From Candidatus Saccharimonadales bacterium (GTDB lineage: Bacteria; Patescibacteriota; Saccharimonadia; Saccharimonadales; EFPC-124): a stretch of DNA of 64,000 nucleotides. The notes under the pieces were generated by a model. It had not been told where the DNA came from, did no database searches, and saw only the letters and a list, made by a program, of their open reading frames with translations. The stretch spans positions 306,659 to 370,658 of the forward strand of contig DATIBO010000006.1 in the NCBI GenBank assembly GCA_035457485.1, given 5' to 3'. Position 1 is the first letter of the stretch, and each line of letters starts with the position of its first letter. The translations under genes were made by a program, and so were the position numbers. Positions 6,948-53,351 of the stretch are shown piece after piece.

Positions 6948-7238
6948 ATGGCAGCACACGCTCACGTTCCAAAAAATGGCAAACACACTTTTTTAAATAA
7001 AATAGTGAACGTTATGGCTGTAGTAGGGCCTTTGTTTGGTTTACCGCAAGTTATTTCTATACATACAACACATCAGGTTGAGGGCTTGGCGCTTTGGTCT
7101 TGGATCGGTTTTTGCGCATACTCGATTGTGTTTTTGACATATGGTATTGTTTATAAACTGAGGCCGGTCATTTTAGCTCAAGTAATGTGGTTAACGGTCT
7201 ATACGCTGATTATTGTTGGAATTTTACTGTACAATTAG
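6948..7238 (+). CDS. 3-TM PQ-loop / SemiSWEET-like small membrane protein
   Basis: 96 aa with three hydrophobic helices and a PQ motif (GPLFGLPQVISI) in TM1. Confidence 0.5.
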   Translation: MAAHAHVPKNGKHTFLNKIVNVMAVVGPLFGLPQVISIHTTHQVEGLALWSWIGFCAYSIVFLTYGIVYKLRPVILAQVMWLTVYTLIIVGILLYN

Positions 7239-7244
7239 GAGTTT

Positions 7245-8351
7245 TTGGTGAGTAAGCGCGATTATTACGAAATTTTAGGTATTACAAAGTCAGCCTCGGC
7301 TGATGAGATTAAAAAAGCTTTTCGTAAGGCTGCCGTTAAGTATCACCCTGACAAAGGTGGTGACGAAGTTAAATTTAAAGAAGCCAACGAAGCCTACGAA
7401 GTTTTAAGTAATCCCGAAAAACGCCAGAGGTATGATCAGTTTGGTCATGCTGGGGTTGGCGGGAACGCTGGCGGAGGCGGAGGAGGAAATCCATTCGGCG
7501 GCGCAGGTGGGTACCAATATCAAAATATTAACTTTGATGATTTGGGTCTGGGTGATATCTTTGGTCAGTTTTTTGGTGGTGGCTCGGGTGGCGGTGATCG
7601 ACGACGCACCAGGCGCGGACAAGATTTAAGTGTAAATATAACGCTAACTTTTGAAGAAGCGATTTTCGGTGTAGAAAAGAAGATCGAGCTAAACACCGAA
7701 GATGTTTGTAAGCGTTGTAAGGGTGATGGTGCTGAGATCGGGTACAACTTACGCAACTGCACAACCTGCCATGGTAGCGGACAAATTAACCGAGCAATGA
7801 ATACGATTTTTGGACAAATCCAGCAAACCACAGAATGTACCACCTGTAATGGGCGCGGTAAGATTCCTGAAAAAGCTTGCTCGGCTTGTAACGGTCGCGG
7901 AATTACCCGCGAAGATCAAGAGCTTAAGCTTAAAATCCCGGCCGGAATTGATGACGGCGCAACAATTCGCCTAAACGGTCGTGGTCAAGCAGTACAGGGT
8001 GGCGAAAAAGGCGATTTATACGTAAGTGTAAAAGTTAAGCCGCACAAAAAGTTCACCCGCGAGGGCAACTTAATTATTAGCAGCGAAAAGATCGACATGG
8101 TAACTGCTGCCTTAGGGGGTGAGGTTGAAGTTGACACCGTGGATGGCGAAATAACCATGAAAATCCCAGCAGGCACACAGGGCGGAACTGACTTTAAATT
8201 GCCACATCATGGCGCGCCAAACTTGCGCAGCGGAAACAGAGGCGATCACATTGTCACCATTTATGTTGAAACTCCAACAAAGCTAAGTAAAAAGCAAAAA
8301 CAGCTGCTTGAGGAATTTAACGGGGCGAGCAAGCGCGGGTTCTTTTCTTAG
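7245..8351 (+). CDS. dnaJ: Molecular chaperone DnaJ
   Basis: J-domain (DYYEILG...KYHPDK), a G-rich linker and four CxxCxGxG repeats. The start is TTG at 7245 or GTG at 7248, after AGGAG. Confidence 0.95.
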
Positions 8352-8415
8352 CTACAGAGCGGGGGTCGGCAGGCGTATATTTTTAAGCTCAAGCTTTTCG
8401 TCGTATACTTAAAGT

Positions 8416-39011: not shown

Positions 39012-39427
39012 TTATCCTCTAGTGTGCCTACCGGGCTTAAGGTTAGGTTGATCGAACGATTATCGCCGCTAACTGTTAATGATAACGTTTGCGATGGTTC
39101 GCCGCGTGGGCTATTGAAGCTTACGTCGCTAAGGCCCGTAACATTCACGCTTTGCGGAATCGAAAAATCCTCACTAAAAGCAGGCGAAGAGCAACTGCTG
39201 CTATAAAGTCTGATGGTACTGGAAGTCTGGCAAACACCCCATGGCCCGCTACCCTTATTTGACATGGCATATGACTGAGCTTTAAGGAGGTAGCTTTTTA
39301 ATATCCCAACTGTCGATATAAATTGCTGTTGTCTGAGTGAATTTGCCGCAAATGGCGCGGTTGCTGTCGCCAGTATGGCAATAAGCGCGATAACCAAAAT
39401 TACTTCTAAAAAACTCACACCTTTCAT
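39008..39427 (-). CDS. Minor pilin (GspH/FimT-like) with prepilin-type N-terminus
   Basis: MKGVSFLEVILVIALIAILA. Confidence 0.7.
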   Translation of the reverse strand: MKGVSFLEVILVIALIAILATATAPFAANSLRQQQFISTVGILKSYLLKAQSYAMSNKGSGPWGVCQTSSTIRLYSSSCSSPAFSEDFSIPQSVNVTGLSDVSFNSPRGEPSQTLSLTVSGDNRSINLTLSPVGTLEDN

Positions 39428-40485
39428 ATTGATAAACTATAAGTTAGGTTGTAAATCGGGCTAAGTAGCGCGATCGCGAACAACCCCACGCTGACCCCCA
39501 AAATAAGAATAAGTACAGGCTCAATGGTTGTGGATATGTTTCTTATCGAATCGTTGACTTCTTCGCGGTAAAAACTTGATAGATATATGAGGTTTTCGTC
39601 GAGATTACCACTCTTTTCGCCTACCACAATCATTCTGGTTACTAGTGGTGGGTAAAGATTATGGTTGTCAATTTTAGCTATACTTTTACTGATCGAGGTT
39701 CCAGATTTTAGGAGTTTAGCGATTTTCTCGAGACTATCACGATATTCTTTGTTAGTTAGGGTTGGTGCTGTTGTCTCTATGGATGTGGCAACAGGTAGGC
39801 CACTCTTAAGAAGTGTGCCAAGGTTTCGTGAAAGTCGCTCTAACTGAGATGATCTAACAACGTCGCGGATGATCGGCAGGTTTAGTAGTGTACTTTGCCA
39901 CCACGGGGAAAGAATAGTGCGAGCTAAAATTACGAATAGAGAAACCAGGACAATTAAACCGATAATTATAGAAATGCCGTAGTCGCTCAAAAAGCCTAAG
40001 AAATTTAGTAAAAATTTGGTCGAGGTTGGAACCGATTCGAACGCCTGCGAGAATTCGATCAATCGCGGAAAAACAATAACGCTCACGATAATTCCAACGA
40101 CGACAAGAGTTACCAGTATGATTGCTGGATAAATCAGAGCCCCTCCGATTCGTGTTTTTAGCCGATATTCGTTCTCGAGTTGCTGCGCTAAAAAAGCTAA
40201 GTTCTCGTTAAGTGACCCCGTTGCTTCACCCGAGGCAACAACGCTTGTGTAAAAGTCATCGAAGATTTTAGGGTACTTTTTTATTGATTTGGTCAGTGTT
40301 TGCCCGTTGTTGATGCTATCGGCTATGCCGCCGAGTGCGATTTTAAGCTGTTTTGATTTTGTTTGCTCTTGCAGAGTTTTTAGAGAATCAACCGGCGAAA
40401 TTCCACTTTTTAGCATTAAAGATAAGTGTCTTGTAACCAACATTTTTTCTTTTAACAGATTCCGCGTGCCAAAAAGTTCGTTCAC
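39424..40485 (-). CDS. pilC: Type IV pilus platform protein PilC (GspF family)
   Basis: 353 aa with duplicated GspF domains and 3 TM segments. Overlaps pilB by 4 nt. Confidence 0.85.
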   Translation of the reverse strand: MNELFGTRNLLKEKMLVTRHLSLMLKSGISPVDSLKTLQEQTKSKQLKIALGGIADSINNGQTLTKSIKKYPKIFDDFYTSVVASGEATGSLNENLAFLAQQLENEYRLKTRIGGALIYPAIILVTLVVVGIIVSVIVFPRLIEFSQAFESVPTSTKFLLNFLGFLSDYGISIIIGLIVLVSLFVILARTILSPWWQSTLLNLPIIRDVVRSSQLERLSRNLGTLLKSGLPVATSIETTAPTLTNKEYRDSLEKIAKLLKSGTSISKSIAKIDNHNLYPPLVTRMIVVGEKSGNLDENLIYLSSFYREEVNDSIRNISTTIEPVLILILGVSVGLFAIALLSPIYNLTYSLSI

Positions 40486-42161
40486 ATTACTTCCTTTATG
40501 ATCCCCAAAATTTCGTCCAAACTAGTAATACCCTGTCTAACTTTATTCAGGCCATCTTCTATAAGTGGTTGCATCCCATTTTTTATGGCGAGATCGCGAA
40601 TGACCTGAGTGTCTTTTTTGTCGGTAATAGCTTTACGAATTTCTTTGTTAGTTTCGAGTACTTCAAAAATTCCTGTCCGACCGCGGTATCCTGTATTAAA
40701 ACAAACTGAGCAACCCTTACCTTTATATGCGCTAAGCTCGGAGATGCTTGAACCAAAGTACTTTTCAATTTCCTTTTTTTCATCGGCAGTAATCTCGTGT
40801 GTTACTCGACAATTTCGACATAGACTACGGACTAATCTTTGTGCAACGATTGAATTCAGCGCGCTCGCTACCAAATAAGCCTCAACACCCATTTCTGACA
40901 TGCGCGCGGGAACTGTCGCTGCATCGTTTGTATGGAAAGTGGACATCACGAGATGACCGGTAAGTGCAGCGTTTATTGCGATGTCGGCTGTTTCTTGATC
41001 TCGGACTTCGCCGACTAGAATAACATTAGGGTCTTGGCGAATTATTGAGCGTAATCCTTTTGCAAAAGTTAGACCTGCTGCCGGATTAACTTGGATTTGG
41101 CGGATTCTTTCGATCTGGTATTCCACTGGATCCTCGATTGTCATTATGTTGAGCTCCGGCTTGTTTATGAGCTTCAAAATTGCATACATTGTGGTTGTTT
41201 TGCCGCAGCCGGTCGGACCGGATGCTAAAAGCATTCCTCGCGATTTTGAGTAAGCTGACTTAATTTTTTGTAGATTGGCCGCCGAAATACCGAGTTCGTG
41301 AATTGAGAGCTCGTGAATATTTTCAGACAAAAGCCGTAGCACAATGTTTTCGCCACGAGTTGTTGGCACTATAGACACTCGAATGTCGATTTGTTTTTCA
41401 TCGGCCAGAAAGGGTATGCTACCATCTTGCGGGCTAAAATGCTCGTCTATTTTTAAATTAGATATGACCTTAATGCGTGTTATGACCTGGTCGAATAAAT
41501 TAGCCGAGATGGTCGTTACGTCATGCAAAATTCCATCGACGCGGAATCTTATTAAGGTTGAATTCTCGCTAGGTTCAATATGAATGTCCGATGCTTTGCT
41601 TCGATAGGCGTAGAGTATTAGTAGGTCTACCAGCTCGATAATATTAGGCCTAGCATCGGAGGGTCTTACCTCGGCCTGCGCTATGCTTGTTGCTAGCTCG
41701 GTTAAAAGATTACCTAAGTAATTCAACAGCGCATCAACAATGTCATTATCGGTGGCATAATAGAGTTCAATTGGTAAATTACTCTTTTGCTTGATCCAAT
41801 CGATCGTGGCCGGTTCTTGCAAGGGGGAGGATGTGGCGACTTTTAGTTTGGTCCCGTTTTTTGCAAACGCGATTAGTTTATGCTTTTGGGCGAAATCCTC
41901 AGGTACTATCTGTAGCACATCAAGTGGTAAGGATATTTGTGAAAGCTGCACGAATGGTAGCTTGTAAAGGTCGGCGACAATTTGACCCAAGATTACGTCG
42001 TCTACCAGCCCTTGATCGGAGATGACTTTTGCTAATGTTTGGCCGCTTTGCTTCGCAAGTGAATATGACTCTTGTAACGACTGAGCCTCCACAATGCCAG
42101 ACTTTCTCAAGAAATCCAAAAGAGATGTGTCGATATCAATGTTCTTCATCGTCCTTACCAT
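40482..42161 (-). CDS. pilB: Type IV pilus assembly ATPase PilB (GspE family)
   Basis: Walker A GPTGCGKTTT, Asp/His boxes, tetracysteine motif (CxxC...CxxC). Confidence 0.92.
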   Translation of the reverse strand: MVRTMKNIDIDTSLLDFLRKSGIVEAQSLQESYSLAKQSGQTLAKVISDQGLVDDVILGQIVADLYKLPFVQLSQISLPLDVLQIVPEDFAQKHKLIAFAKNGTKLKVATSSPLQEPATIDWIKQKSNLPIELYYATDNDIVDALLNYLGNLLTELATSIAQAEVRPSDARPNIIELVDLLILYAYRSKASDIHIEPSENSTLIRFRVDGILHDVTTISANLFDQVITRIKVISNLKIDEHFSPQDGSIPFLADEKQIDIRVSIVPTTRGENIVLRLLSENIHELSIHELGISAANLQKIKSAYSKSRGMLLASGPTGCGKTTTMYAILKLINKPELNIMTIEDPVEYQIERIRQIQVNPAAGLTFAKGLRSIIRQDPNVILVGEVRDQETADIAINAALTGHLVMSTFHTNDAATVPARMSEMGVEAYLVASALNSIVAQRLVRSLCRNCRVTHEITADEKKEIEKYFGSSISELSAYKGKGCSVCFNTGYRGRTGIFEVLETNKEIRKAITDKKDTQVIRDLAIKNGMQPLIEDGLNKVRQGITSLDEILGIIKEVM

Positions 42162-42519
42162 TCAAAAGCGAGATAGCCTTACTAACGACTTTTGTCAGTG
42201 AAACGTGTGACTTTACCAAGTAATCTTTTGCGCCCAGACTTTTGGCTCGCCGAATGTCTTCTGGTTGACTCAAATTTGAAAGCACAAGAACCAGCTTGTT
42301 TTTATCACGAACACTTTCTAGCACGTCCCAGCCATCTAAATTCGGCATTAAAATGTCTAAAATAATGAGATCGAAGCTATTTGACTCGATCAGAGGAATA
42401 GCTTCAACGCCGTCAAGAGCGACTGTCGCTAGAAAACCGTCGGCTTCAAATCGCTGTTTTAAAGCTTTGGCGAGAGCCTCTTCATCTTCAATTATTAAAA
42501 CGCTAAACTGTTTTTTCAT
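42136..42519 (-). CDS. Response-regulator receiver protein
   Basis: VLIIEDEE...DLIILDILMPNLDG...K. Located between the kinase and pilB. Confidence 0.85.
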   Translation of the reverse strand: MKKQFSVLIIEDEEALAKALKQRFEADGFLATVALDGVEAIPLIESNSFDLIILDILMPNLDGWDVLESVRDKNKLVLVLSNLSQPEDIRRAKSLGAKDYLVKSHVSLTKVVSKAISLLNGKDDEEH

Positions 42520-43558
42520 CTTGCAATCCTTTCTTGCGCATTCCAGTTAGAGGTATAGATACATAAAATGTTGTACCAGGATGTTTAGGTGAGCCAGACT
42601 CTGAAGGTGATGTGTACCAAATTTTTCCGCCCGCTTCTTCTATAAGGCGTTTTGCATCAAACAAACCTAAACCAACGCCACGCGGGTCGGCGAGCCTAGC
42701 TTCTTCTGATCTAAAGAATTTAGTAAACATCTGTTCTCGATATCGTGGTGAGATTCCAAATCCTGTGTCTTCGACGGTGCAAATAACGTTTTTTGCTTGG
42801 TCGAGCGAGTGTGATATATTAACTGATCCACCAGGCGGGGTGTAGGTAATTGCATTAGAAACCAATGTGCGATACACAGTTCCAAGGATATTAGGATCAA
42901 CTTTAATTACGGGTATTTCATCATGTGACTCACGTATGTAAACTCCTTTTTTGTTTGCTTCATTCTTGAAATACTCTACGGCGCTGTGCATGATTTTGAC
43001 CACATCTCCAGGTACGGGATCGATCGCAAAAGTGTTGAGTTCGATTCGCGAGGCATAGAGTAGCTCATCGGTTGTCTCAATTGCCTTGAGTGTGGCAACC
43101 TCGGCCTCGAGTAAGTAGCTTTTCTGCTCGTCGTTCAGCGTTGGGTCATGTGAAAGACTCTCGACGTACCAACGAATAACTGTTAGTGGAGTTTGAAGTT
43201 GGTGCCCAGCGAGCGAAATAAATTGGGTCTTAGCATCGTCAAGCTCTTTTTGCTTTGTCATGTCGGAGTGCACCTCGACGAAAAATTCAACCTCCTTGTG
43301 GTCATCTAATACCGGAAAAATCATCGCTCGGCTGTAAAAAATGCTGCCATCTTTACGCTTGTTTTTGAACTCACCTATAAAAGGCTTTTTTTGCAATTTT
43401 ATAGTCTGCCATAGCTTTTTATAAAACGACTTTGGCATAAGACCGCCCCAAAGTTCTTTTGAGCCAACTTTTTTACCGACAACTTCGTTAAGTGGGAATC
43501 CAGTTAGTTCCTCGACGGCTTTATTGGCGTAAAAAACCGTACCGTCAACATCAGTCAT
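42503..43558 (-). CDS. PAS-domain sensor histidine kinase
   Basis: PAS (DVDGTVFYANKAVEELTG), H-box AGHQLQTPLT, N/G boxes. The frame stays open 81 nt upstream with no canonical start, so the PAS N-terminus may be clipped or use an unusual start. Confidence 0.8.
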   Translation of the reverse strand: MTDVDGTVFYANKAVEELTGFPLNEVVGKKVGSKELWGGLMPKSFYKKLWQTIKLQKKPFIGEFKNKRKDGSIFYSRAMIFPVLDDHKEVEFFVEVHSDMTKQKELDDAKTQFISLAGHQLQTPLTVIRWYVESLSHDPTLNDEQKSYLLEAEVATLKAIETTDELLYASRIELNTFAIDPVPGDVVKIMHSAVEYFKNEANKKGVYIRESHDEIPVIKVDPNILGTVYRTLVSNAITYTPPGGSVNISHSLDQAKNVICTVEDTGFGISPRYREQMFTKFFRSEEARLADPRGVGLGLFDAKRLIEEAGGKIWYTSPSESGSPKHPGTTFYVSIPLTGMRKKGLQDEKTV

Positions 43559-45206: not shown

Positions 45207-45761
45207 ATGCGAAAAATTATAGCAACAATATCGTTAAGCGTTGACGGTTACTTTTGTGGCCCGAATGGCGAGATCGACTGGTTTGTATTAGATAAAGAAT
45301 TTGACGATCACTCACTAGAAGTTTTGGACACGGTTGATACATTTTTGTTTGGTCGTACAACTTACGAAGGTATGGCGAACTATTGGCCAACACAGGGAGA
45401 TAAGTATAATCCAGAAGTTGCTAAACGAATGAATGGCTATGCGAAGATTGCGGTTTCTGACAAGCCGATCGATCTAAGCTGGAACAATTCGCAACAACTC
45501 CAGGGTGATTTAATCGAAGAAGTCACGAAATTAAAACAGCAAGAGGGCGCAAATATTTGCATTTACGGAAGCGGCGACATTGTGCGTCAGCTAACCGATG
45601 CAGGTTTAATTGATGAATACAACTTACTAATTGACCCGGTTATTCTTGGCGATGGCAAAACCTTGTTTAAAGGAGTGAAACATAGAACGGCTTTAAATCT
45701 TAACGAAGTCCGACAGTTCAAGTCTGGCGTAGTTTTGCATAATTATACATTGCAAAAGTAG
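45207..45761 (+). CDS. Dihydrofolate-reductase-like (RibD C-terminal domain) family protein
   Basis: ISLSVDGY...FGRTTYEGMANYW...IYGSGDIVRQL...DEYNLLIDPVILGDGKTLF. Confidence 0.75.
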   Translation: MRKIIATISLSVDGYFCGPNGEIDWFVLDKEFDDHSLEVLDTVDTFLFGRTTYEGMANYWPTQGDKYNPEVAKRMNGYAKIAVSDKPIDLSWNNSQQLQGDLIEEVTKLKQQEGANICIYGSGDIVRQLTDAGLIDEYNLLIDPVILGDGKTLFKGVKHRTALNLNEVRQFKSGVVLHNYTLQK

Positions 45762-45786
45762 CTAAAAACATAATGCGATGCTCGTG

Positions 45787-46236
45787 TTATTTTGCTTGTA
45801 AAACTTCTAGAGTATACAAAATTTCACTCGCGTGAGTTGCGGGTGTGACTTTGGGAAATTCATGCACGATTTGACCATCAGGGTTGATAATAAAAGTTTT
45901 TCGCAACGTTCCAACATGTCCTAAAAAACCTTTGCCCCACGCGCCGTAGGCCTTAATGGTGCTTTTGGCGGGGTCGCTTAAAAGCGTAAATGGTAACTTG
46001 TAGTTTTTAATAAAATTAGCGTGACTTTCGACCGAATCTTTAGAGATGCCGATCACAACGGCATCTTTTGCTATTAGCGACTCATTAGCGTCACGAAATG
46101 AACATGCCTCGGCAGTGCATCCCGGAGTTTGGTCTTTAGGGTAAAAGTACAGAACTACCCATTTGCCGGCAAAATCCGTCAGCGTTTTGACGTTGCCGTT
46201 TTGATCTTTTAGCGAAAAGTTTGGAGCTTGCTTCAT
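45787..46236 (-). CDS. bcp: Peroxiredoxin Bcp (thiol peroxidase)
   Basis: FYPKDQTPGCTAEAC active-site region. Confidence 0.88.
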   Translation of the reverse strand: MKQAPNFSLKDQNGNVKTLTDFAGKWVVLYFYPKDQTPGCTAEACSFRDANESLIAKDAVVIGISKDSVESHANFIKNYKLPFTLLSDPAKSTIKAYGAWGKGFLGHVGTLRKTFIINPDGQIVHEFPKVTPATHASEILYTLEVLQAK

Positions 46237-46304
46237 AAGTATACTTTATCATTTAGTGAGTTAAACTTAAATTCGGCCAGCTATTGAGGCTAAAACTAAA
46301 AGTA

Positions 46305-46333
46305 TTGACATGGGCGTGACGGTAAACTACAGT
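46305..46333 (+). promoter_or_regulatory. Sigma70-like promoter upstream of the lasso precursor
   Basis: TTGACA-17 nt-TACAGT in AT-rich sequence about 65 nt upstream of the precursor ATG. Confidence 0.5.
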
Positions 46334-46399
46334 TTTTATTTGTGCGTTGTACATACACACATCGCACGTACCCACGAATCCCGCAAAGGGGGTGAATGA

Positions 46400-46516
46400 A
46401 TGAACTTCGACGAGGAGTACGAGGTCCCGGCCACGCAGGAGATCGGTGGCGTGGTGGAAATCACGCTCGGCTCGGCCGGCAACGACAAGAAGGACGACAC
46501 CCAGTACTGGGTGTGA
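46400..46516 (+). CDS. Lasso peptide precursor (38 aa; predicted 23-aa leader + 15-aa core)
   Basis: Not in the track, which shows a different frame. Translation: MNFDEEYEVPATQEIGGVVEITL|GSAGNDKKDDTQYWV. AAGGGGGTG lies 5-7 nt upstream. Thr at -2, Gly1 and Asp9. Immediately upstream of C-B1-B2. Confidence 0.8.
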   Translation: MNFDEEYEVPATQEIGGVVEITLGSAGNDKKDDTQYWV

Positions 46517-46524
46517 CGTCCGAA

Positions 46525-46556
46525 CCTCGAGGCCAGGCTTGCGCCTGGCCTCGAGG
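46525..46556 (+). promoter_or_regulatory. Perfect 14-bp GC hairpin between precursor and cyclase genes (attenuator/stabiliser)
   Basis: CCTCGAGGCCAGGC-TTGC-GCCTGGCCTCGAGG. No T-tract follows. Confidence 0.6.
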
Positions 46557-46579
46557 CCCCATCTACTCAAAGGAGTAAT

Positions 46580-48349
46580 ATGCAATGGGTTGCAGGGTTC
46601 TGGCCTCGACGAGACGCCATGAACAAACCTGTGGTTTTCCCAAAAAACTCACATGCCCACAATATGCTGTGGAATGTTGGGTACGAATGTACCGAGTTCC
46701 GTCGATTTAGCTCTGGTTCCACAACCGTCACGGTTGTAGGATCATGTCTGGCTACAGACGTCGAACTCAACGCCGCACTCCCAGCCGCCGATTCCGAGCG
46801 CTGGGAGATTTTTGCACAGTGGCCAGGTTCGTACATTGCCGTTGTGCAAAGAGCGCATGAAGCAGTAGTGATTACTGATCTTGCTGGGGCGAAACCGGTC
46901 TTCTGGGTAAAAACCGACTCTGGATGGTGGTGGTCGACAGCAGCGACACCTTTGGCGGCGTTGATGCGGTCAAAGGTTAACATTCGAGCACTTCTTACGC
47001 CTCTGATGGTGGCAGGAGTAGATGCGTGGGGCGGAGAAACGCCTTACGAGAAGGTGATGGTAGTTAAGCCGGGTTCGGTTCTTCGCCTGTCACATGACGG
47101 GCCGAAGGTCGAAACTTGGTATAAGCCAACGGTATTGTCGTTCGCCGAAGGGCAGCACAATTTCCGCGCCGCTCTCACTGATTCAGTCGGTCGGCGAGCA
47201 GCCCTAGGTGACATCTCTAGCGATTTGTCGGGAGGTATCGACTCAAGCCTTATTGCGCTGCTCGCAAGCCGCTTGACGGTTGTTCACGGAGCGACCTATG
47301 TTGATCCGTGGCAAAGAAACGATGACGCCGATTATGCTCGGCGCGTCGCAGGGTTCGGCGGAATCAGGCAAATTCTTGTCGAAGGCGACCAAACAACCAC
47401 TCACTACAGCGATCTCGATGAAGCGCCATTTACGGATACACCGTCGGCCGATGGGGTCTTGTTCGGCTACAACCGAGCAAAGCTTCAAGCTGTGAAGGCG
47501 GCGGGTTCTCGACACCATCTAACCGGAGCTGCGGGTGATTGCATGCTTTTGTCTCCCTACCCATGGGTGGCGGAGCTGTATAAGCACCAGCGGCTTCAGG
47601 CTCTCCGTTGGGCGCGCCAAGAAGCTCGGCGTCGTTTGACGTCAAGTCGGCGATTCATCCTCGCAACGCGTCGACTGGCTACAACATCATTTGCCAATGA
47701 AGCCGCAAGGCTGGCAGGCGGAGTTGAGGTGGCCGAAAAGACGGCATGGTCTTCAGTCTGCTGGCTTAAGTGGATGGAGTCCGCCATCTGGCTAACCGAA
47801 CAAGGTCGCTCGATGTTGTGTGGTCGTCTCGAGGAGATATCCTACGAGTTGGATCCGCCCGAGAATCCTGGCGCGAATCTCGATTGGCAAAGTCTTAGGG
47901 CTACGGCGATCGAGCGCACGACCGCGGTTGAGTTTGCGCGTTCCATTGGAATCACGCTCCACAATCCGTTTTTCGACACTCAGGTGATTGATGCTTGCCT
48001 GTCGATTCCGGGATATGAGCGTGCTCCCCTGGACACGTTTAAGCCGCTAGCAACGCTGGGCTTTATGGCAGAGTTGCCGGAGTTTTTGCGCCAGCGTCGC
48101 ACTAAGGGCGACTTTGCCGGCACGATGCTTCACGGTATTCTGTTTAACCAGCACTGGCTGAAGCGCATGATCGAAAGTTCGGCTCTGGTAGAAATGGGGT
48201 TGATCGACAGAGATCAGCTACGTCAAAGTGTTCAATCTGCGATTTACGGATTTGACACTCAGCTGCGCGGGATTCACCACCTGACTACGATCGAAATGTG
48301 GTTGAGGTCCCGCGATCTGCGTCCTACTGTTTGGTGGGAGATGCTGTGA
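46580..48349 (+). CDS. Lasso peptide cyclase (asparagine synthetase-like, C protein)
   Basis: 589 aa with the PP-loop ATP-pyrophosphatase motif DLSGGIDSS. AAGGAG RBS. Lasso cluster context. Confidence 0.85.
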   Translation: MQWVAGFWPRRDAMNKPVVFPKNSHAHNMLWNVGYECTEFRRFSSGSTTVTVVGSCLATDVELNAALPAADSERWEIFAQWPGSYIAVVQRAHEAVVITDLAGAKPVFWVKTDSGWWWSTAATPLAALMRSKVNIRALLTPLMVAGVDAWGGETPYEKVMVVKPGSVLRLSHDGPKVETWYKPTVLSFAEGQHNFRAALTDSVGRRAALGDISSDLSGGIDSSLIALLASRLTVVHGATYVDPWQRNDDADYARRVAGFGGIRQILVEGDQTTTHYSDLDEAPFTDTPSADGVLFGYNRAKLQAVKAAGSRHHLTGAAGDCMLLSPYPWVAELYKHQRLQALRWARQEARRRLTSSRRFILATRRLATTSFANEAARLAGGVEVAEKTAWSSVCWLKWMESAIWLTEQGRSMLCGRLEEISYELDPPENPGANLDWQSLRATAIERTTAVEFARSIGITLHNPFFDTQVIDACLSIPGYERAPLDTFKPLATLGFMAELPEFLRQRRTKGDFAGTMLHGILFNQHWLKRMIESSALVEMGLIDRDQLRQSVQSAIYGFDTQLRGIHHLTTIEMWLRSRDLRPTVWWEML

Positions 48350-48615
48350 AGCTTTCTCAGGATGCATACCCTGTGTTCGACAAGCTTACGGGATCGGCGT
48401 ACGTTCTCCTGCTCAGGACTGGCAAGTGGCGTTTTTTTAATCCGTCGGCCGGAAAGCTGTTAAAGCAACTAGCCGACGGTGTAGATCTGGAAACGGCTCT
48501 ACGAAACGTCGCCGCAGGATACAGGAGGCCGGTTGACGTCGATGTCTTAAGGATCGACATGGAGCCCGTACTTCGGGCAATGATCGACCTCGGAATCCTA
48601 GAGGAGAACGAGTGA
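48346..48615 (+). CDS. PqqD-like RiPP recognition element (lasso B1 protein)
   Basis: 89 aa from a GTG overlapping the cyclase TGA (GTGA). The track gives a longer in-frame ORF from 48298. Size and position fit B1. Confidence 0.7.
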   Translation: MKLSQDAYPVFDKLTGSAYVLLLRTGKWRFFNPSAGKLLKQLADGVDLETALRNVAAGYRRPVDVDVLRIDMEPVLRAMIDLGILEENE

Positions 48616-49028
48616 CAGTTAATATGCTGCCGCCAGATAGTTCTGGCAGTGGGCTGAGCCTTGGCTACAAAGTCCTGGGTTTTCTGAGCCTTCTTTTGGC
48701 GGTCACTTCACTTCGAGTTCTGTCCTTGGCGACGTTGGTTACCACCTTGATCAAGGTGAAGCCTGATCGTGCAGCCAGCTCAAGGCAGGCAGAGGACTAC
48801 ATCCGCGCTATTCAGTGGGCAGGTAATTTCTACTTCGGTAGAGTTGCCTGCCTAGAAAGAGCTGTCGGTGTCGCAATCCTCGCGGCCATGGTCCGCAGGC
48901 GGGTTACAAGTTGCATTGGTGCTCGCTTTCGACCCAACGAGTTCCATGCTTGGACTGAGGTCGACGGCACTCCGGTCATGGAGATCGAAAGTGCCGATTG
49001 GCCCTACCAAGCCGCGGTAAGGTTTTAG
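48612..49028 (+). CDS. Transglutaminase-like cysteine protease (lasso leader peptidase, B2 protein)
   Basis: 138 aa with Cys in GRVACLERA and His/Asp in EFHAWTEVDG. The GTG overlaps the B1 stop. Confidence 0.8.
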   Translation: MTVNMLPPDSSGSGLSLGYKVLGFLSLLLAVTSLRVLSLATLVTTLIKVKPDRAASSRQAEDYIRAIQWAGNFYFGRVACLERAVGVAILAAMVRRRVTSCIGARFRPNEFHAWTEVDGTPVMEIESADWPYQAAVRF

Positions 49029-49033
49029 GGTAC

Positions 49034-49062
49034 GGTCTGCATGGCATCCAGCTATGCAGACC
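49034..49062 (+). terminator. Hairpin closing the lasso cluster
   Basis: GGTCTGCAT-N11-ATGCAGACC, a 9-bp stem 6 nt after the B2 stop. Confidence 0.5.
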
Positions 49063-49253
49063 ACTAACGATATTATTAAACTGCATCAGAGTACTGGGAT
49101 GCCAGTTACCAAAACTCTAACGAAAGTGACGCCACGCGTTGTTTAGTCAGTTGGGAGAAGTAAAGCCACATCTTTGTTTTATTAAGTTAACAAATATATT
49201 TGATTATCCTGCAACTTTCTGAGATGATGTAATTATAACTAAGGGGAGGTTCT

Positions 49254-50099
49254 ATGGTCTTAAGCTCAGTTCGCAAAATAAGCAGATTTTTTATTGGACT
49301 TTTGGTTTCGGCTTTAATGGTTTTACCAGCGGTCGGCGTTCAAGCAGCTGCACCAGGCAGTTTATATAGCTACACTCTTGATGGCGCGTCAGCGACAGTG
49401 ACGAATAATGCCGCAGCTAACACCAACGTAAACCTTAACTTACTCGGTGATTGGTCGCAAACTAGCTTTGGGGTCAAGTTCGAGGGCAACACAACTAATA
49501 AGCAGTCTGTAGGCTATGCTAAACCAGCTAGCGGCAGTACCATTAACGTTCCTGCTTCGCAAGCATTCGGCGGAAGTGTCTTGTTTAAGTACCAGGCACC
49601 AACAAGCGGAACGTGCTTTGCAGACTCGCCAAACATCACACAAATTGGCAAATATGGCGCGGGTCTTACGCAGTTTAAATTTCAAATAAGTAATTGTGGC
49701 AAGAGTCAAACTGCAGTGTTTCCCCAGTGTCGTGTTGCGGGAAGTAGTGGCGCGAACAATCCAGTAATGGGAACTCAATCCCTGATCGATGGCTACGATT
49801 ATATTTTGCAGTGTATAAAATCTCCAGATCCAGCTAGCGGGAGCGCAAGTTTGCAAATGAACTTGACTAAAATTGACCCAGTAAATGGTAATGTGACCTA
49901 CACAAACAATTTTGCGATTAACAAAACTGGAACACTTAATTCCACTCAGTATTTAAGTGTTGCCAATCAATACCCACTTAAGTCGCAGGCAAACAACACT
50001 GATCAATTTAACGGTGAAGTTTCGAAAGTTGCTTATTGCACCGGCGCAACTGTAGCCGACGCACAAATTTGTTTGGATACAGAAGTACCTCTACAGTAA
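49254..50099 (+). CDS. Secreted protein (281 aa), unknown function
   Basis: Signal peptide ending VGVQAAAPG. Thr/Asn/Gly-rich beta-type sequence. GGGGAGG RBS. Confidence 0.6.
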   Translation: MVLSSVRKISRFFIGLLVSALMVLPAVGVQAAAPGSLYSYTLDGASATVTNNAAANTNVNLNLLGDWSQTSFGVKFEGNTTNKQSVGYAKPASGSTINVPASQAFGGSVLFKYQAPTSGTCFADSPNITQIGKYGAGLTQFKFQISNCGKSQTAVFPQCRVAGSSGANNPVMGTQSLIDGYDYILQCIKSPDPASGSASLQMNLTKIDPVNGNVTYTNNFAINKTGTLNSTQYLSVANQYPLKSQANNTDQFNGEVSKVAYCTGATVADAQICLDTEVPLQ

Positions 50100-50108
50100 G
50101 TTAAGTAA

Positions 50109-51185
50109 TTGTCATATCGTTTGTATTACAATAAACATATGACACCAAAAGAAACTGGCGGTAGATATCACTCACTCTATATTATTCTTTTTATAGCATT
50201 GTGTGTGGCTCTACTCGCCAGTGCGGTCTTGGCTTGGTATTACGCGCAGGATTTGACAAAATCACCCGTTGCCGATTCTTCGGTTAGTAACCAATCGTTT
50301 ACCTTTGCGGCTGCAGGCGATTTTGATAGCGCGCCTGCTTTTGTCGACGTACTTAAGCAGATAAAAGCGAGTGACGCTAACTTCACTCTTGGTCTGGGCG
50401 ACCTAAGTTATGGCAATGTTATCGAGCGAGAGTGGTGCGATAAAGTTCACGAAACACTCGGAGCTACGCATGCTTTTGAGTTGGTATTTGGTAATCATGA
50501 CGATGTTTCGGGTAGTAAGGCAGGGCTTATGGCGGCATGCTTGCCTAACCGCATGCCTGATATGGTGGGCGACTACGGAAGCAAGTACTACTTTGACTAT
50601 AAAGGTTTGGCGCGAATCATCGGAATTACGCCCGACATTACACTTTACGGGCAAACAAACCAATATGATCAGGGGTCAGAGCAGTATAAATGGCTGTCTG
50701 ATCGTATTGACGAAGCGCAGAAGCAACAGCTTTGGGTGGTTGTTTCAATGCACAAAAACTGCCTGACGATTGGTGTTAAAGACTGCGAAATAGGCCAAGA
50801 CCTATTTAATATGCTATTACAAAAACGCGTTGATATTATTTTACAGGGTCACGAACATGGTTATATGCGCAGTAAACAGCTACGCGTGGGTGAAGATTGC
50901 ACTAGCCCTACCGTGGGATTCAAACCTAATTGTTTAGCGAGTGATTCAAACGACCTATACAACAAAGGTGATGGTTCAGTACTGGTAATCACCGGAACAG
51001 GAGGAGTAGAACCGCGTGACGCTCAGCTTGACAGCCCACTAGCTCCTTATTTTGCCAGTGTGCACGTTAAAAACGCCAACCCAGTATACGGTCCAACGAT
51101 TTTTTATGTGACTCCCGTCGCGATAACGGCGCAGCTGATAGATACGGCCGGGAATGTTCAGGACTCATTTAGGATAGAACGCTGA
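50109..51185 (+). CDS. Membrane-anchored calcineurin-like metallophosphoesterase
   Basis: GDF/GDLSY, GNHD and GHEH motifs. N-terminal TM. Start is TTG at 50109 or ATG at 50139. Confidence 0.75.
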   Translation: MSYRLYYNKHMTPKETGGRYHSLYIILFIALCVALLASAVLAWYYAQDLTKSPVADSSVSNQSFTFAAAGDFDSAPAFVDVLKQIKASDANFTLGLGDLSYGNVIEREWCDKVHETLGATHAFELVFGNHDDVSGSKAGLMAACLPNRMPDMVGDYGSKYYFDYKGLARIIGITPDITLYGQTNQYDQGSEQYKWLSDRIDEAQKQQLWVVVSMHKNCLTIGVKDCEIGQDLFNMLLQKRVDIILQGHEHGYMRSKQLRVGEDCTSPTVGFKPNCLASDSNDLYNKGDGSVLVITGTGGVEPRDAQLDSPLAPYFASVHVKNANPVYGPTIFYVTPVAITAQLIDTAGNVQDSFRIER

Positions 51186-51451
51186 TCATTGACTTTATCG
51201 GCATATGAATTGACGTGATCTAACGAGGTCCAAGTGGAGCCCATTCCGAGTTCTTTTCAAGCTTGATCTAAACTACACCCCAGGACTACGAGCAGAGGTA
51301 GCGCATTTGCAGGTCGTAGTCTTCCGGCTTTACCTCAGTTAGGCCACCACTTACATATCCACTTCAGGATCGGCTTGTTTTTAGCTCGCTCCAAAACGCC
51401 TCACTCGCATCAAATTGCTTAACGGAGGAACAAAAAACCTCCGCTAATGAG

Positions 51452-52180
51452 TTACTGGACGTCGTAAGAAATACGAACCGTGCCAGCCTGAGTTTTTATT
51501 TTCCTGATTGTCTCACGCCCTATGTCTTTTAGTGCAGCAACATGCGTCCCGCCACATGGCACGCCAAAATCACCATATAACACAACTCGGCTCGGCTTAT
51601 CTTTTGGTAGATACTCCGGCACATGTCGGCAAAGTTTTGCCATTTCCTCTTTATTGACGAAACGTATTTCAGTGGTAATACCGCGGCTCAGGATTTCGGC
51701 AATCTTTTGCGATAACTTTTCCATTACATCTTCCTTGGCCTCGTTGCCCAAGTCACCTTGGTATTCAACGTACGCACCCTGTGGAAAGTGATAGCCTTTG
51801 CCCGGAACCCAGTCGTAGCCGAGTTCGTTTACCGCCATATCTAAAACGTGTCCGCCAGAGTGAACTCGAGTATTTAGTTCACGGCGATCTTTATCTACCG
51901 CGCACTCCACGTCTTCGCCTTGCATGAACGGATAGCCTTCAAAACGCCCGATGTGTAGTACGAGTCCCTCGGCAAAGCGCACCTCCTCAACGGTAAATGT
52001 GGAATCTGGGCTTGAAATTGTGCCGGTATCGTAGGGTTGCCCGCCGCCTTGCGGGTAAAAAACCGTTTGGTCTAGGTAGACGATTGTCTTTCCATCCTTT
52101 TCTTCAACCTTTTCAACGTATGCCGTACAAGCAAGTTGTTGCATATTTTCTAAATAAAGTAGTTTCGTGTGATTCATCAT
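51452..52180 (-). CDS. AlaX-type tRNA trans-editing protein (Ala/Thr-tRNA synthetase second additional domain)
   Basis: Zinc-binding motifs HSGGHVL (HxxxH) and CGGTHV (CxxxH). 242 aa. Confidence 0.8.
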   Translation of the reverse strand: MMNHTKLLYLENMQQLACTAYVEKVEEKDGKTIVYLDQTVFYPQGGGQPYDTGTISSPDSTFTVEEVRFAEGLVLHIGRFEGYPFMQGEDVECAVDKDRRELNTRVHSGGHVLDMAVNELGYDWVPGKGYHFPQGAYVEYQGDLGNEAKEDVMEKLSQKIAEILSRGITTEIRFVNKEEMAKLCRHVPEYLPKDKPSRVVLYGDFGVPCGGTHVAALKDIGRETIRKIKTQAGTVRISYDVQ

Positions 52181-52229: not shown

Positions 52230-53351
52230 CTAAAGATATCCTGCTGCGCCGTGATTAATTTTACTGTATACAGCATCGTAAATTTCGTTTGCTTCTTGGT
52301 TTGTTAGCGATCTTTCCAGATGCCTAAGCGTAATGCGTACTAGTACATTTTTTTGATCTGGCTTGCAGCCTAGTCGTTCACGGGCAATTTGCGGCAGATC
52401 CTTGTAGAGAGTTTCGTTTAATACTTCAACACTTTCAAGAATATTTACTTTGTCTCCTAGGGCTTGACGAATATCCTCGTTTATATCTTCTTCTACATGC
52501 TTCGCTGGAATGCTATATGACATGTCACGCGTAATCGCCGGTTGGTGTGATACTTCGGTATATTTTTCAAGGTCTTTCATTTGAACAGCGATCGCAGGGT
52601 TTGTAGAGCGAAGATAGCGAATGTCTGGGATATCTTTGAGCGTCATAACCAAGCGGTCGAGTCCAATACCCATAGCCCAGCCAGAATGTTTGGCCGGATC
52701 AAGCCCAGCATCATTGAGTATTTGATCGTTGATTAAGCCGCACTCTAAGATCTCGATATCTTGGTCGCCTAGCACGGCGTTTACTTCTACGCCCTGCTTT
52801 GTGTAGGGGTGTGGGCTGTCGATAATACGCAGTTTCCAGTCTGGGGCCGCGATTTCGGCGATTCTCCTGACCGTTTCAAGTAGATCTTCTTTAACAATTG
52901 TGGGTTTTCGGCTAATACGCCAAATGTCTAATTGATGGAGCACGCCCAAGTGCTTTTTGTCGGTAACATCACGGCGGTACGCAAGGCCAGGTAGTAAAAT
53001 CACAACATCTTGCCAGTCGTTTCGCGCGGCGAGCTGCTTTAGCAGTGCTGGCGCATGTGCAGTGGTGTGGGTGCGCAAAAGGTGTTCTTGGTCGACGTAG
53101 TGTGTGTAGGTGGATGAGCGGCTTATGTTGTCTTTAGGGACAAGCAGGGCATCGTAGTTGTCTGCGGCCAATACGATCGGATTATCGCGGTGGACAATTG
53201 TCTCGCTCATTGGATGTGCTGCTCGCACGCTATCTTCGATTTTTTGGTATAGCAAGGCGACCGCGTGTGGCTCGCCGGCTTGTGTTAGGTCTGGAATTGC
53301 TAAATAGCTTTTTAGCGCTTCTTTGCTGAGTGGTTTTATATACATTTTCAT
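52230..53351 (-). CDS. pheS: Phenylalanyl-tRNA synthetase alpha-type catalytic core fused to a C-terminal FDX-ACB-like domain (mitochondrial-style single-chain architecture)
   Basis: Class II motif 2 (YRRDVTDKKHLGVLHQLD), motif 3 (GWAMGIGLDRLVM), then about 115 aa with RDMSYSIP...VRITLRHLERSLTNQEANEIY resembling an FDX-ACB domain. No pheT is adjacent. Confidence 0.7.
   Translation of the reverse strand: MKMYIKPLSKEALKSYLAIPDLTQAGEPHAVALLYQKIEDSVRAAHPMSETIVHRDNPIVLAADNYDALLVPKDNISRSSTYTHYVDQEHLLRTHTTAHAPALLKQLAARNDWQDVVILLPGLAYRRDVTDKKHLGVLHQLDIWRISRKPTIVKEDLLETVRRIAEIAAPDWKLRIIDSPHPYTKQGVEVNAVLGDQDIEILECGLINDQILNDAGLDPAKHSGWAMGIGLDRLVMTLKDIPDIRYLRSTNPAIAVQMKDLEKYTEVSHQPAITRDMSYSIPAKHVEEDINEDIRQALGDKVNILESVEVLNETLYKDLPQIARERLGCKPDQKNVLVRITLRHLERSLTNQEANEIYDAVYSKINHGAAGYL

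What the first reader, a model, noticed from the sequence alone, without database searches (positions are those of the whole stretch)
46400..46516. Hidden 38-aa precursor: leader fits YxxPxLx3Gx5Tx, predicted 15-aa core GSAGNDKKDDTQYWV with a G1-D9 ring
The ORF track reports a different frame here (46396-46578). The frame starting at ATG 46400 gives MNFDEEYEVPATQEIGGVVEITLGSAGNDKKDDTQYWV.

Y7, P10, G16 and T22 occupy four of the five conserved positions of the actinobacterial leader motif YxxPxLx3Gx5Tx. Thr sits at -2 and Gly is the first core residue.

The only acidic residue at core positions 7-9 is Asp9, which predicts a 9-membered-residue macrolactam. Y13 and W14 are candidate steric plugs in a 6-residue tail.

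The ring (S, A, G, N, D, K, K) is unusually hydrophilic and charged compared with the hydrophobic 15-mer lasso peptides I know of, such as the sungsanpin/chaxapeptin type.
Basis: partly seen in the sequence, partly recalled or inferred. Interest (0 to 1): 0.8.

Follow-up and report, generated by a model that had tools for sequence, protein, structure and literature searches.

The report
Unannotated lasso-peptide precursor in a Saccharibacteria genome
The small ORF is very likely a real, unannotated lasso-peptide precursor gene with its complete processing machinery; the chemistry is ordinary, but the host is an ultra-small (about 0.9 Mb) Saccharibacteria/CPR genome, a group in which such gene clusters are rarely reported.

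Summary
ATG 46400–TGA 46516 encodes MNFDEEYEVPATQEIGGVVEITL|GSAGNDKKDDTQYWV. Immediately downstream lie a lasso cyclase (C), a PqqD-type leader-binding protein (B1) and a Cys protease (B2).

A profile of 113 Streptomyces precursors, built without this sequence, scores this frame at 32.4 bits (E = 5e-9). The next best of 1,846 six-frame segments scores 4.7 bits. The rival frame (46396–46578) has no coding signature.

The closest characterised relatives are cellulonodin-2 and lihuanodin. [quoted passage not shown] That supports the predicted G1–D9 ring and the Y13/W14 plugs. This peptide differs in having DKKD where the family has its hallmark DTAD motif. No aspartimide-forming methyltransferase gene lies within the 64-kb window.

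The window comes from an 889-kb contig of a Candidatus Saccharimonadales genome, where C, B1 and B2 are annotated but the precursor is not. I found three more methyltransferase-less relatives. At least two sit in Saccharibacteria-type contexts, and two of the three precursors are also uncalled.

All four precursor genes have GC3 of 0.87–0.97, against 0.50–0.59 in their own cyclases. I cannot explain this.

Verdict: new member of a known kind, with moderate interest because of the host. Nothing here shows expression or a product.

The parts
46305..46333 (+). Sigma-70-like promoter candidate (TTGACA, 17 nt, TACAGT) at the left edge of the GC-rich island
   Evidence: 10 of 12 matches, the best site in 45700-51500. 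This is a consensus match only; 8 sites were found against 5.7 expected by chance.
46385..46395 (+). Shine-Dalgarno-like AAAGGGGGTGA, 4 nt upstream of the ATG
   Evidence: Read directly from the sequence.
46400..46516 (+). Precursor gene A (38 aa plus stop). Leader 46400-46468 (MNFDEEYEVPATQEIGGVVEITL); core 46469-46513 (GSAGNDKKDDTQYWV).
   Evidence: family HMM 32.4 bits, E = 5e-9; lasso_leader_L3, 15.1 bits, below cut-off; GC3 = .92.
46525..46556 (+). Perfect 14-bp GC-rich hairpin (4-nt loop, no U-tract) between A and C; likely an mRNA 3' stabiliser or attenuator
   Evidence: -37.9 kcal/mol, z = -4.9; a perfect 11-14-nt inverted repeat, or a strong predicted hairpin, follows the A stop in all seven homologous clusters compared, in the same place but with different sequences.
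46580..48349 (+). Lasso cyclase C (589 aa), preceded by AAAGGAG at 46569-46575
   Evidence: Asn_synthase, 4e-29; NF033561, 315 bits against a cut-off of 300; PP-loop SGGIDS at residue 217; 100% identical to the NCBI protein annotated as a macrolactam cyclase in Ca. Saccharimonadales.
48346..48615 (+). B1, a PqqD-like leader-recognition protein (89 aa). It starts at GTG 48346, which overlaps the C stop codon (GTGA).
   Evidence: alignment with homologues fixes the start; weak PqqD and lasso_PqqD hits; family profile hits TfuB1 6jx3 and TbiB1 5v1u, E about 5e-7.
48612..49028 (+). B2, a transglutaminase-like Cys protease (138 aa); its start overlaps the B1 stop codon
   Evidence: Transglut_core3, 7.5e-16; lasso_biosyn_B2, 56.6 bits against a cut-off of 33; invariant C80, H112 and E124.

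Best explanation
ORF 46400-46516 is the precursor gene (A) of a four-gene lasso-peptide operon, A-C-B1-B2, carried in a Candidatus Saccharimonadales (CPR) genome. The inferred mechanism follows the established lasso pathway. B1 binds the leader through Tyr-17 and Pro-14. B2 (Cys80/His112) cleaves after Leu-1, with Thr-2 as the recognition residue. C uses ATP at its SGGIDS PP-loop to activate the Asp9 side chain and joins it to the Gly1 amine. This gives a 9-residue ring through which the tail DDTQYWV is threaded, held by Tyr13 above and Trp14 below. The predicted product is a 15-residue class II lasso peptide with monoisotopic mass 1664.743. It probably carries no aspartimide, because no methyltransferase gene is nearby and the DTAD recognition motif has become DKKD. 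The GC-rich hairpin after A probably stabilises the short A transcript or attenuates read-through, so that precursor exceeds enzyme. Shown here: the gene content, the homologies, the conserved residues and the host assignment. Inferred: expression, processing, ring position, threading and the role of the hairpin. The biological target is unknown. The nearest characterised relatives have no reported activity in the paper read here (the word 'biological' does not occur in it).
For: Translation and gene order. The precursor aligns with Streptomyces family precursors at 14 invariant positions. The family HMM, built without this sequence, hits this frame alone. The family is the cellulonodin-2/lihuanodin family, with the G1-D9 ring shown by D9N mutants and Y13/R14 as locks by NMR. 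D9 is present in every core recovered, while D10 is variable. The enzymes are intact: PP-loop, B2 Cys/His/Glu, B1 related to the leader-binding proteins TfuB1 and TbiB1, and GTGA start/stop overlaps at C/B1 and B1/B2. The hairpin is conserved in position across homologous clusters. Host: the cyclase, B2 and neighbours are 100% identical to proteins of one 889-kb Ca. Saccharimonadales contig, and the flanking PheRS-like gene's relatives at 60-72% identity are nearly all labelled Saccharibacteria, Saccharimonadales or other Patescibacteria. Related methyltransferase-less clusters with the same leader spacing occur in another Saccharimonadales MAG (L029) and in a contig syntenic with a Saccharibacteria MAG (L031).
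Against: There is no expression or product evidence of any kind. Ala8 is present in 113 of 120 relatives, and in cellulonodin-2 the A8G variant gave mainly linear core; here position 8 is Lys, which might impair cyclisation unless the cyclase has co-adapted. Phe5, nearly universal in the Streptomyces family, is Asn here. No exporter or immunity gene is in or next to the island. B1 scores below the curated cut-offs on its own. The only second assembly of this locus (L007) is 100% identical and so is not independent. No close relative exists (cyclase at most 39% identity), so purifying selection on this copy could not be measured.
Confidence: 0.82

Rival explanations
1. The operon is an inactive remnant of a horizontally acquired cluster. 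The ORFs are still open, but the peptide is no longer made or no longer cyclised.
For: The cluster sits on a GC island (0.553 against 0.450) in a reduced genome. It has no exporter or immunity gene. The strongly conserved Ala8 and the nearly universal Phe5 are replaced. B1 is weak against curated models.
Against: All four ORFs are intact and keep their catalytic and motif residues. The overlapping start/stop codons, the Shine-Dalgarno sites and the post-A hairpin are preserved. Diverged relatives (35-37% cyclase identity) keep the same architecture in other Saccharibacteria-type genomes, which implies long-term maintenance.
Confidence: 0.08
2. The peptide is processed, but with a different linkage or topology: a Gly1-Asp10 ring of 10 residues, or an unthreaded branched-cyclic product.
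For: Asp10 is adjacent to Asp9. The Lys7-Lys8 ring is unprecedented in the family, so the ring geometry may differ.
Against: Asp9 is present in every core recovered, while position 10 can be N, S, E or G. D9N abolishes lasso formation in both characterised homologues even though cellulonodin-2 and lihuanodin have further acidic residues. The 15-aa layout matches lihuanodin's 9/4/2 structure.
Confidence: 0.06
3. The lasso island is an assembly or binning artefact: DNA of another organism joined into a Saccharimonadales contig.
For: GC rises abruptly at about 46300 and falls at about 49100. The A gene has actinomycete-like GC3 of 0.92.
Against: The island lies inside an 889-kb contig with host-like genes on both sides. 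A separate Logan assembly gives identical junctions. C, B1 and B2 have intermediate GC3 (.56-.61), unlike Streptomyces loci at 70% GC. Related clusters occur in two other Saccharibacteria-type contexts with the same GC pattern.
Confidence: 0.03
4. The annotated-style longer ORF in the other frame (46396-46578, 60 aa) is the real gene.
For: It is longer, and an ORF-length heuristic would report it.
Against: Its product is Arg/Gly-rich sequence with no relatives. It reads through the 14-bp hairpin and into the Shine-Dalgarno site of C. Its codon-position GC is non-coding-like. It gets no family HMM score.
Confidence: 0.01

Closest known systems
Lihuanodin (Lihuaxuella thermophila; PDB 7LCW) and cellulonodin-2 (Thermobifida cellulosilytica), the aspartimidylated lasso peptides of Cao et al. 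2021 (bioRxiv 10.1101/2021.05.19.444711)
   Same: A-C-B1-B2 gene order. Leader with conserved Y, P and G and a penultimate T. Gly1 and Asp6 are present. The isopeptide acceptor is Asp9, giving a 9-aa ring. Like lihuanodin, the core is 15 aa with Tyr13 and a bulky residue 14 as locks.
   Different: The DTAD motif at positions 6-9 is DKKD here. No PIMT-type O-methyltransferase gene lies within the 64-kb window, so no aspartimide is expected. The host is a CPR bacterium, not an actinobacterium or a firmicute.
Predicted Streptomyces/Kitasatospora DTAD-type precursors (e.g. S. decoyicus, ...VVAVTL|GTNNFDTADDTQYKNA), with a PCMT gene after B2
   Same: 41-47% precursor identity with 14 invariant positions. 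The ...TLG junction and the DDTQY block are identical. A GC-rich hairpin follows A.
   Different: Their cyclases are only 31-33% identical to ours and fall outside the clade containing ours in 100 of 100 bootstrap replicates. They have 16-aa cores with Phe5 and carry a PCMT gene. Their genomes are at 70% GC.
Methyltransferase-less relatives found here: L029 (Ca. Saccharimonadales MAG) GTAGNNNADGTEYYE; L031/L032 (Saccharibacteria-like contig) GNKSNNNADDTEYRE; L030 (taxon unknown) GSNGFNDADDTQYDQA
   Same: The same leader spacing (aromatic -17, P-14, G-8, T-2). Cores of 15-16 aa with D9, T11 and Y13. C, B1 and B2 present without PIMT. A-gene GC3 of .87-.97 against cyclase GC3 of .50-.59. A hairpin follows A. 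Their cyclases are the nearest relatives of ours.
   Different: Cyclase identities are only 35-37%. These three have Asn6 and Ala8, whereas ours keeps Asp6 and has Lys7-Lys8.
Leader recognition by TfuB1 (fusilassin, PDB 6JX3) and TbiB1 (PDB 5V1U/5V1V)
   Same: The B1 family profile matches both at E about 5e-7. From my own knowledge of those structures, the leader contacts are Tyr-17, Pro-14 and Leu-12, and the first two are at the same positions here.
   Different: Position -12 is Thr here and Val in the Streptomyces relatives, not Leu. The core peptides are unrelated.

Membership tests
Lasso peptide biosynthetic gene cluster (split-B type) | Precursor with a leader ending in Thr at -2, a small first core residue, and Asp or Glu at core position 7-9 | tested here: met
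   T22 at -2, G1, D9.
Lasso peptide biosynthetic gene cluster (split-B type) | Asparagine-synthetase-like cyclase with an ATP-binding PP-loop | tested here: met
   PF00733, 4e-29. NF033561, 315 bits against a cut-off of 300. SGGIDS at residue 217.
Lasso peptide biosynthetic gene cluster (split-B type) | PqqD-like leader-recognition protein (B1) | tested here: met
   On its own it falls below the curated cut-offs (17.1 and 22.5 bits). It aligns with the B1 proteins of homologous clusters, and the family profile hits TfuB1 and TbiB1 at E about 5e-7.
Lasso peptide biosynthetic gene cluster (split-B type) | Transglutaminase-like Cys protease (B2) with catalytic Cys and His | tested here: met
   PF13471, 7.5e-16. 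NF033537, 56.6 bits against a cut-off of 33. C80, H112 and E124 are invariant.
Lasso peptide biosynthetic gene cluster (split-B type) | Threaded [1]rotaxane topology of the product | not testable with these tools
   This needs MS/MS, carboxypeptidase and heat assays, or NMR.
Cellulonodin-2/lihuanodin (aspartimidylated) lasso peptides | Conserved DTAD motif at core positions 6-9 | tested here: not met
   The motif is DKKD here. 106 of 120 relatives have DTAD and none has DKKD.
Cellulonodin-2/lihuanodin (aspartimidylated) lasso peptides | PIMT-homologous O-methyltransferase gene in the cluster | tested here: not met
   tblastn of the S. decoyicus PIMT against the whole 64-kb window gives a best E of 1.0. 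The ORF after B2 is a signal-peptide protein with host-like GC. The rest of the 889-kb genome could not be searched.
Cellulonodin-2/lihuanodin (aspartimidylated) lasso peptides | Gly1, Asp6 and the ring-forming Asp9, with the Y/P/G/T leader | tested here: met
   All are present and aligned.
Cellulonodin-2/lihuanodin (aspartimidylated) lasso peptides | Cyclase groups with those of DTAD clusters | tested here: not met
   In the NJ tree the clade holding ours excludes the Streptomyces DTAD cyclases in 100 of 100 replicates. TceC and LihC themselves were not available for comparison.
NCBIfam NF033561 albusnodin/ikarugamycin-family macrolactam cyclase | Score above the curated cut-off | tested here: met
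   315.1 bits against a cut-off of 300. This is a broad subfamily model and does not imply acetylation; no acetyltransferase was seen near the cluster.

The most novel reading that the evidence does not exclude
Saccharimonadales, which are obligate epibionts with genomes of about 0.9 Mb, maintain their own old and diverged lineage of methyltransferase-less lasso peptides. These peptides act on the actinobacterial host or on its competitors. The precursor genes are kept at actinomycete-like codon usage (GC3 .87-.97 in genomes of 45-51% GC), either by repeated capture of precursor cassettes from hosts or by an unknown selection on the precursor mRNA.
Probability: 0.2. Interest if true: 0.75.

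Novelty: new member of a known kind. Interest (0 to 1): 0.5.

Why it matters
Lasso peptides are common, and this operon follows the standard biosynthetic logic, so the chemistry is not new.

The host is what matters. The papers I could search describe gene clusters in CPR/Patescibacteria as rare and of unknown role (PMC7298704, PMC9765116), and none of them mentions a lasso cluster there.

A 0.89-Mb genome that keeps a 2.7-kb peptide operon is probably under selection to do so. Diverged relatives in other Saccharibacteria-type genomes point the same way. The cultivated members of this group live on Actinobacteria (PMC10633639), so a compact, stable secreted peptide is a plausible tool for dealing with the host or its competitors.

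The peptide is also a natural experiment for the aspartimide family. It keeps Asp6 but has lost the DTAD motif and the methyltransferase.

There is a practical lesson as well. Three of the four precursors in this subfamily are missing from public gene calls, so cluster surveys of CPR genomes will under-report them.

Tried and rejected
1. Close relatives of the cyclase in the GTDB species representatives and in JGI metagenomes: none found.

2. A degenerate DNA pattern for DKKDDTQY in metagenomes gave six hits. All are chance matches with no leader and no lasso neighbours.

3. L007 looked like an independent second occurrence, but it is 100% identical over 17.4 kb, so it is the same genome.

4. 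An 'empty site' test in 13 related Saccharibacteria loci was uninformative. No synteny is conserved around the PheRS-like gene, and none of the loci has lasso genes within 10 kb.

5. The 281-aa ORF after B2 as a tailoring enzyme: rejected. It has a signal peptide, a Ser/Thr/Asn-rich sequence and host-like GC, with no Pfam, NCBIfam or PDB match.

6. 'The A gene arrived recently from an actinomycete' as the explanation for GC3 = .92: weakened, because three diverged relatives show the same bias.

7. 'Adaptation to host translation': rejected. Host genes, including the EF-G-like gene, use 39-51% C at the same codons, against 11 of 11 in A.

8. 'Selection for mRNA structure': not supported. The coding region alone gives z = -1.75.

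9. No flanking direct repeats, no nearby tRNA and no Rfam family at the island.

10. Organism names for the neighbours of L030 and L031: none on record.

11. Single-sequence PDB searches with C, B1 and B2, and a profile search with B2, found nothing meaningful.

12. No precursor was found upstream of the L033 cyclase with the family HMM.

Full report
**Observation.**
The window has an ATG at 46400 that opens a 38-codon ORF ending at TGA 46514-46516. A longer ORF in another frame (46396-46578) also exists. A TGA lies in frame directly before the ATG, so there is no alternative start. An AAAGGGGGTGA Shine-Dalgarno-like element ends 4 nt upstream of the ATG.

**Context.**
Three genes follow on the same strand:
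- an Asn-synthase-like protein of 589 aa (46580-48349);
- a PqqD-like protein;
- a transglutaminase-core protein of 138 aa (48612-49028).

NCBIfam assigns them to a macrolactam cyclase subfamily (315 bits, cut-off 300), to lasso PqqD chaperones (weak), and to lasso B2 (56.6 bits, cut-off 33).

Alignment with homologues moves the B1 start to GTG 48346, which overlaps the C stop codon as GTGA. B1 and B2 overlap in the same way. The cyclase keeps its PP-loop SGGIDS. B2 keeps invariant Cys80, His112 and Glu124. A profile of the B1 family matches the leader-binding proteins TfuB1 (6jx3) and TbiB1 (5v1u) at E about 5e-7.

A perfect 14-bp GC hairpin lies between A and C (-37.9 kcal/mol, z = -4.9) and has no U-tract. 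A sigma-70-like site, TTGACA-17-TACAGT, lies at 46305-46333.

**Is the small ORF the gene?**
The cyclase's homologues in Streptomyces sit in A-C-B1-B2-PCMT clusters whose called precursors read ...VVAVTL|GTNNFDTADDTQYKNA. Our peptide aligns with them at 41-47% identity and 14 invariant positions. These include Y-17, P-14, G-8, T-2, L-1, G1, D6, D9, D10, T11, Q12 and Y13.

A profile search recovered 120 such precursors, nearly all from Streptomyces. An HMM of 113 of them, with ours excluded, scores the 46400 frame at 32.4 bits (E = 4.8e-9). No other of the 1,846 six-frame segments in the window exceeds 4.7 bits.

The frame also has a coding-type GC periodicity (GC2 = .33, GC3 = .92), which the rival frame lacks. 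The rival product is Arg/Gly-rich and reads through the hairpin. No Rfam family matches the region.

**What family?**
Cao et al. (bioRxiv 10.1101/2021.05.19.444711) describe exactly this precursor family. It has conserved Y, P and G in the leader, a penultimate T, G1, and a DTAD motif at positions 6-9. A PIMT-like methyltransferase converts Asp6 of the mature lasso into an aspartimide.

D9N abolishes lasso formation in both cellulonodin-2 and lihuanodin. Lihuanodin's NMR structure has a 9-aa ring, a 4-aa loop and a 2-aa tail, with Y13 and R14 as steric locks. Our 15-aa core has the same layout, with D9, Y13 and W14.

**How it differs.**
- Of 120 relatives, 106 have DTAD and none has DKKD. Position 5 is almost always Phe, and ours is Asn.
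- No PIMT homologue is detectable anywhere in the 64-kb window (best tblastn E = 1.0).
- The ORF after B2 is a signal-peptide, Ser/Thr/Asn-rich protein with host-like GC, not an enzyme.
- No transporter is adjacent. The neighbours are Nramp, a RibD_C-domain protein, a peroxiredoxin, a metallophosphoesterase, an AlaX-like protein, a PheRS-like protein, and type IV pilus PilB/PilC-like genes.

One caveat: in cellulonodin-2 the A8G variant gave mainly linear core, and ours has Lys8.

**Host.**
The cyclase, B2 and five neighbours are identical to proteins of a single 889,392-bp contig labelled Candidatus Saccharimonadales bacterium. The accession numbering leaves no slot for a precursor gene, and no gene with this product is on record.

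The flanking PheRS-like gene gives independent support. Its closest relatives, at 60-72% identity, are nearly all labelled Saccharibacteria, Saccharimonadales or other Patescibacteria.

The lasso genes form a GC island (0.553 against 0.450 for the rest of the window). It has no flanking repeats and no nearby tRNA.

**Not a one-off.**
An exhaustive HMMER search of 1.84 billion cluster representatives finds no cyclase above 39% identity. Among the closest are three informative loci:
- **L029**, from another Ca. Saccharimonadales MAG (P0140). Its uncalled 38-aa ORF is MKEIEKYEPPKVTSLGNALDLTR|GTAGNNNADGTEYYE.
- **L031/L032**, whose two leftmost genes are syntenic with a Saccharibacteria MAG at 70% and 42% identity. 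Its uncalled precursor is ...ETFAAPVVIDAGTFSEVTL|GNKSNNNADDTEYRE.
- **L030**, of unknown taxon, with a called 36-aa precursor, MEEYETPEAFELGNLRDETH|GSNGFNDADDTQYDQA.

All three have B2 and none has a PIMT.

In an NJ tree the window, L029 and L031 cyclases group together. With L030 and two unnamed sequences they form a weakly supported clade (47 of 100 replicates). That clade excludes the Streptomyces DTAD cyclases in 100 of 100 replicates. Pairwise identities within the group are 35-37%.

This points to old, diverged lineages in Saccharibacteria-type genomes and not to a recent import from Streptomyces. The weak support and the unknown hosts of some members keep this tentative. A profile of the four precursors retrieves only three called proteins from 5.8 billion, so these genes are systematically missed.

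**Unexplained.**
The A gene has GC3 = .92, and all 11 of its two-fold/Ile Y-ending codons end in C. No 39-codon window of C, B1 or B2 exceeds .74 (binomial P about 1e-6).

The same contrast holds in L029, L030 and L031: A-gene GC3 of .87-.97, cyclase GC3 of .50-.59, and flanks at .45-.51 GC. Recent arrival of this particular A gene is therefore unlikely.

Host genes do not share the bias. The coding region is not unusually structured (z = -1.75). Repeated precursor exchange with high-GC donors, or an unknown selection on the transcript, remain open.

**Literature.**
In the searchable library, gene clusters in CPR/Patescibacteria are described as rare. Sharrar et al. found a lanthipeptide, a terpene and azole-peptide clusters (PMC7298704), and PMC9765116 says the same. 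One long-read study found none in its Patescibacteria MAGs (PMC11613949).

No paper I found mentions a lasso cluster in this group. Most lasso families are said to be confined to one phylum (PMC12070363). Cultivated Saccharibacteria are epibionts of Actinobacteria (PMC10633639, abstract). Large automated catalogues outside this library may already list the cluster type, because NCBI names C and B2.

**Verdict.**
It is a new, unannotated member of a known kind. It is a canonical split-B lasso operon whose precursor is related to the cellulonodin-2/lihuanodin family, but it lacks the DTAD motif and the methyltransferase. Its interest lies in the CPR host, the small sibling subfamily and the codon-usage oddity. 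Expression, product and function remain untested.

Noticed in passing
window 46400-46516; L029 5701-5817; L030 7638-7748; L031 about 7044-7166: The precursor genes of all four methyltransferase-less clusters have GC3 of .87-.97. Their own cyclases have GC3 of .50-.59 and the flanks are at 45-51% GC. Recent transfer of this copy, host codon preference and mRNA folding do not explain it.
   Followed up: partly
window 52230-53351 (-) and 51452-52180 (-): A 373-aa protein combines a class II PheRS core (tRNA-synt_2d) with a C-terminal FDX-ACB domain, an architecture like a single-chain PheRS. It is annotated 'hypothetical' in the record and is conserved at 60-72% identity in a dozen MAGs, nearly all labelled Saccharibacteria or other Patescibacteria. 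An AlaX-like 242-aa editing-domain protein lies next to it.
   Followed up: partly
window 39424-42161 (-) and 42136-43558 (-): Type IV pilus/secretion ATPase (T2SSE with an MshEN domain) and platform protein (T2SSF) genes lie next to a PAS histidine kinase and response regulator pair, a few kb upstream of the lasso island.
   Followed up: no
window 49254-50099 (+) and 50109-51185 (+): A 281-aa protein with a signal peptide, rich in Ser/Thr/Asn and with several Cys, has no family or PDB match. A metallophosphoesterase follows 10 nt downstream. Both have host-like GC and lie directly after B2.
   Followed up: partly
L033 8001-13059: A related lasso C-B1-B2 set (33% cyclase identity) is followed by a 708-aa YcaO-nitroreductase fusion. 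That is the azole-peptide cluster type reported as widespread in CPR genomes. The host is unknown, and the family HMM found no precursor upstream.
   Followed up: partly
JGI contig of P0003 (no DNA available) and L034 25-9452: Lasso cyclase genes occur in tandem arrays: four Asn-synthase-like genes with PqqD or transglutaminase partners within 15 kb on the JGI contig, and three C plus fused-B pairs in L034.
   Followed up: no
L029 7977-8412: In the second Saccharimonadales MAG, B2 is not called. A 105-aa gene is called on the opposite strand at 7977-8294, while tblastn places a B2 homologue (42% identity) on the + strand at 8098-8412. The precursor there is also uncalled.
   Followed up: partly
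L001 266-412: A cyclase at about 37% identity sits on a contig with 60% GC. Its called 48-aa peptide ends in ...DRTAEGGQGNNLESTGRWYG. It does not match the Y/P/G/T leader spacing, and its cleavage site is unclear.
   Followed up: no
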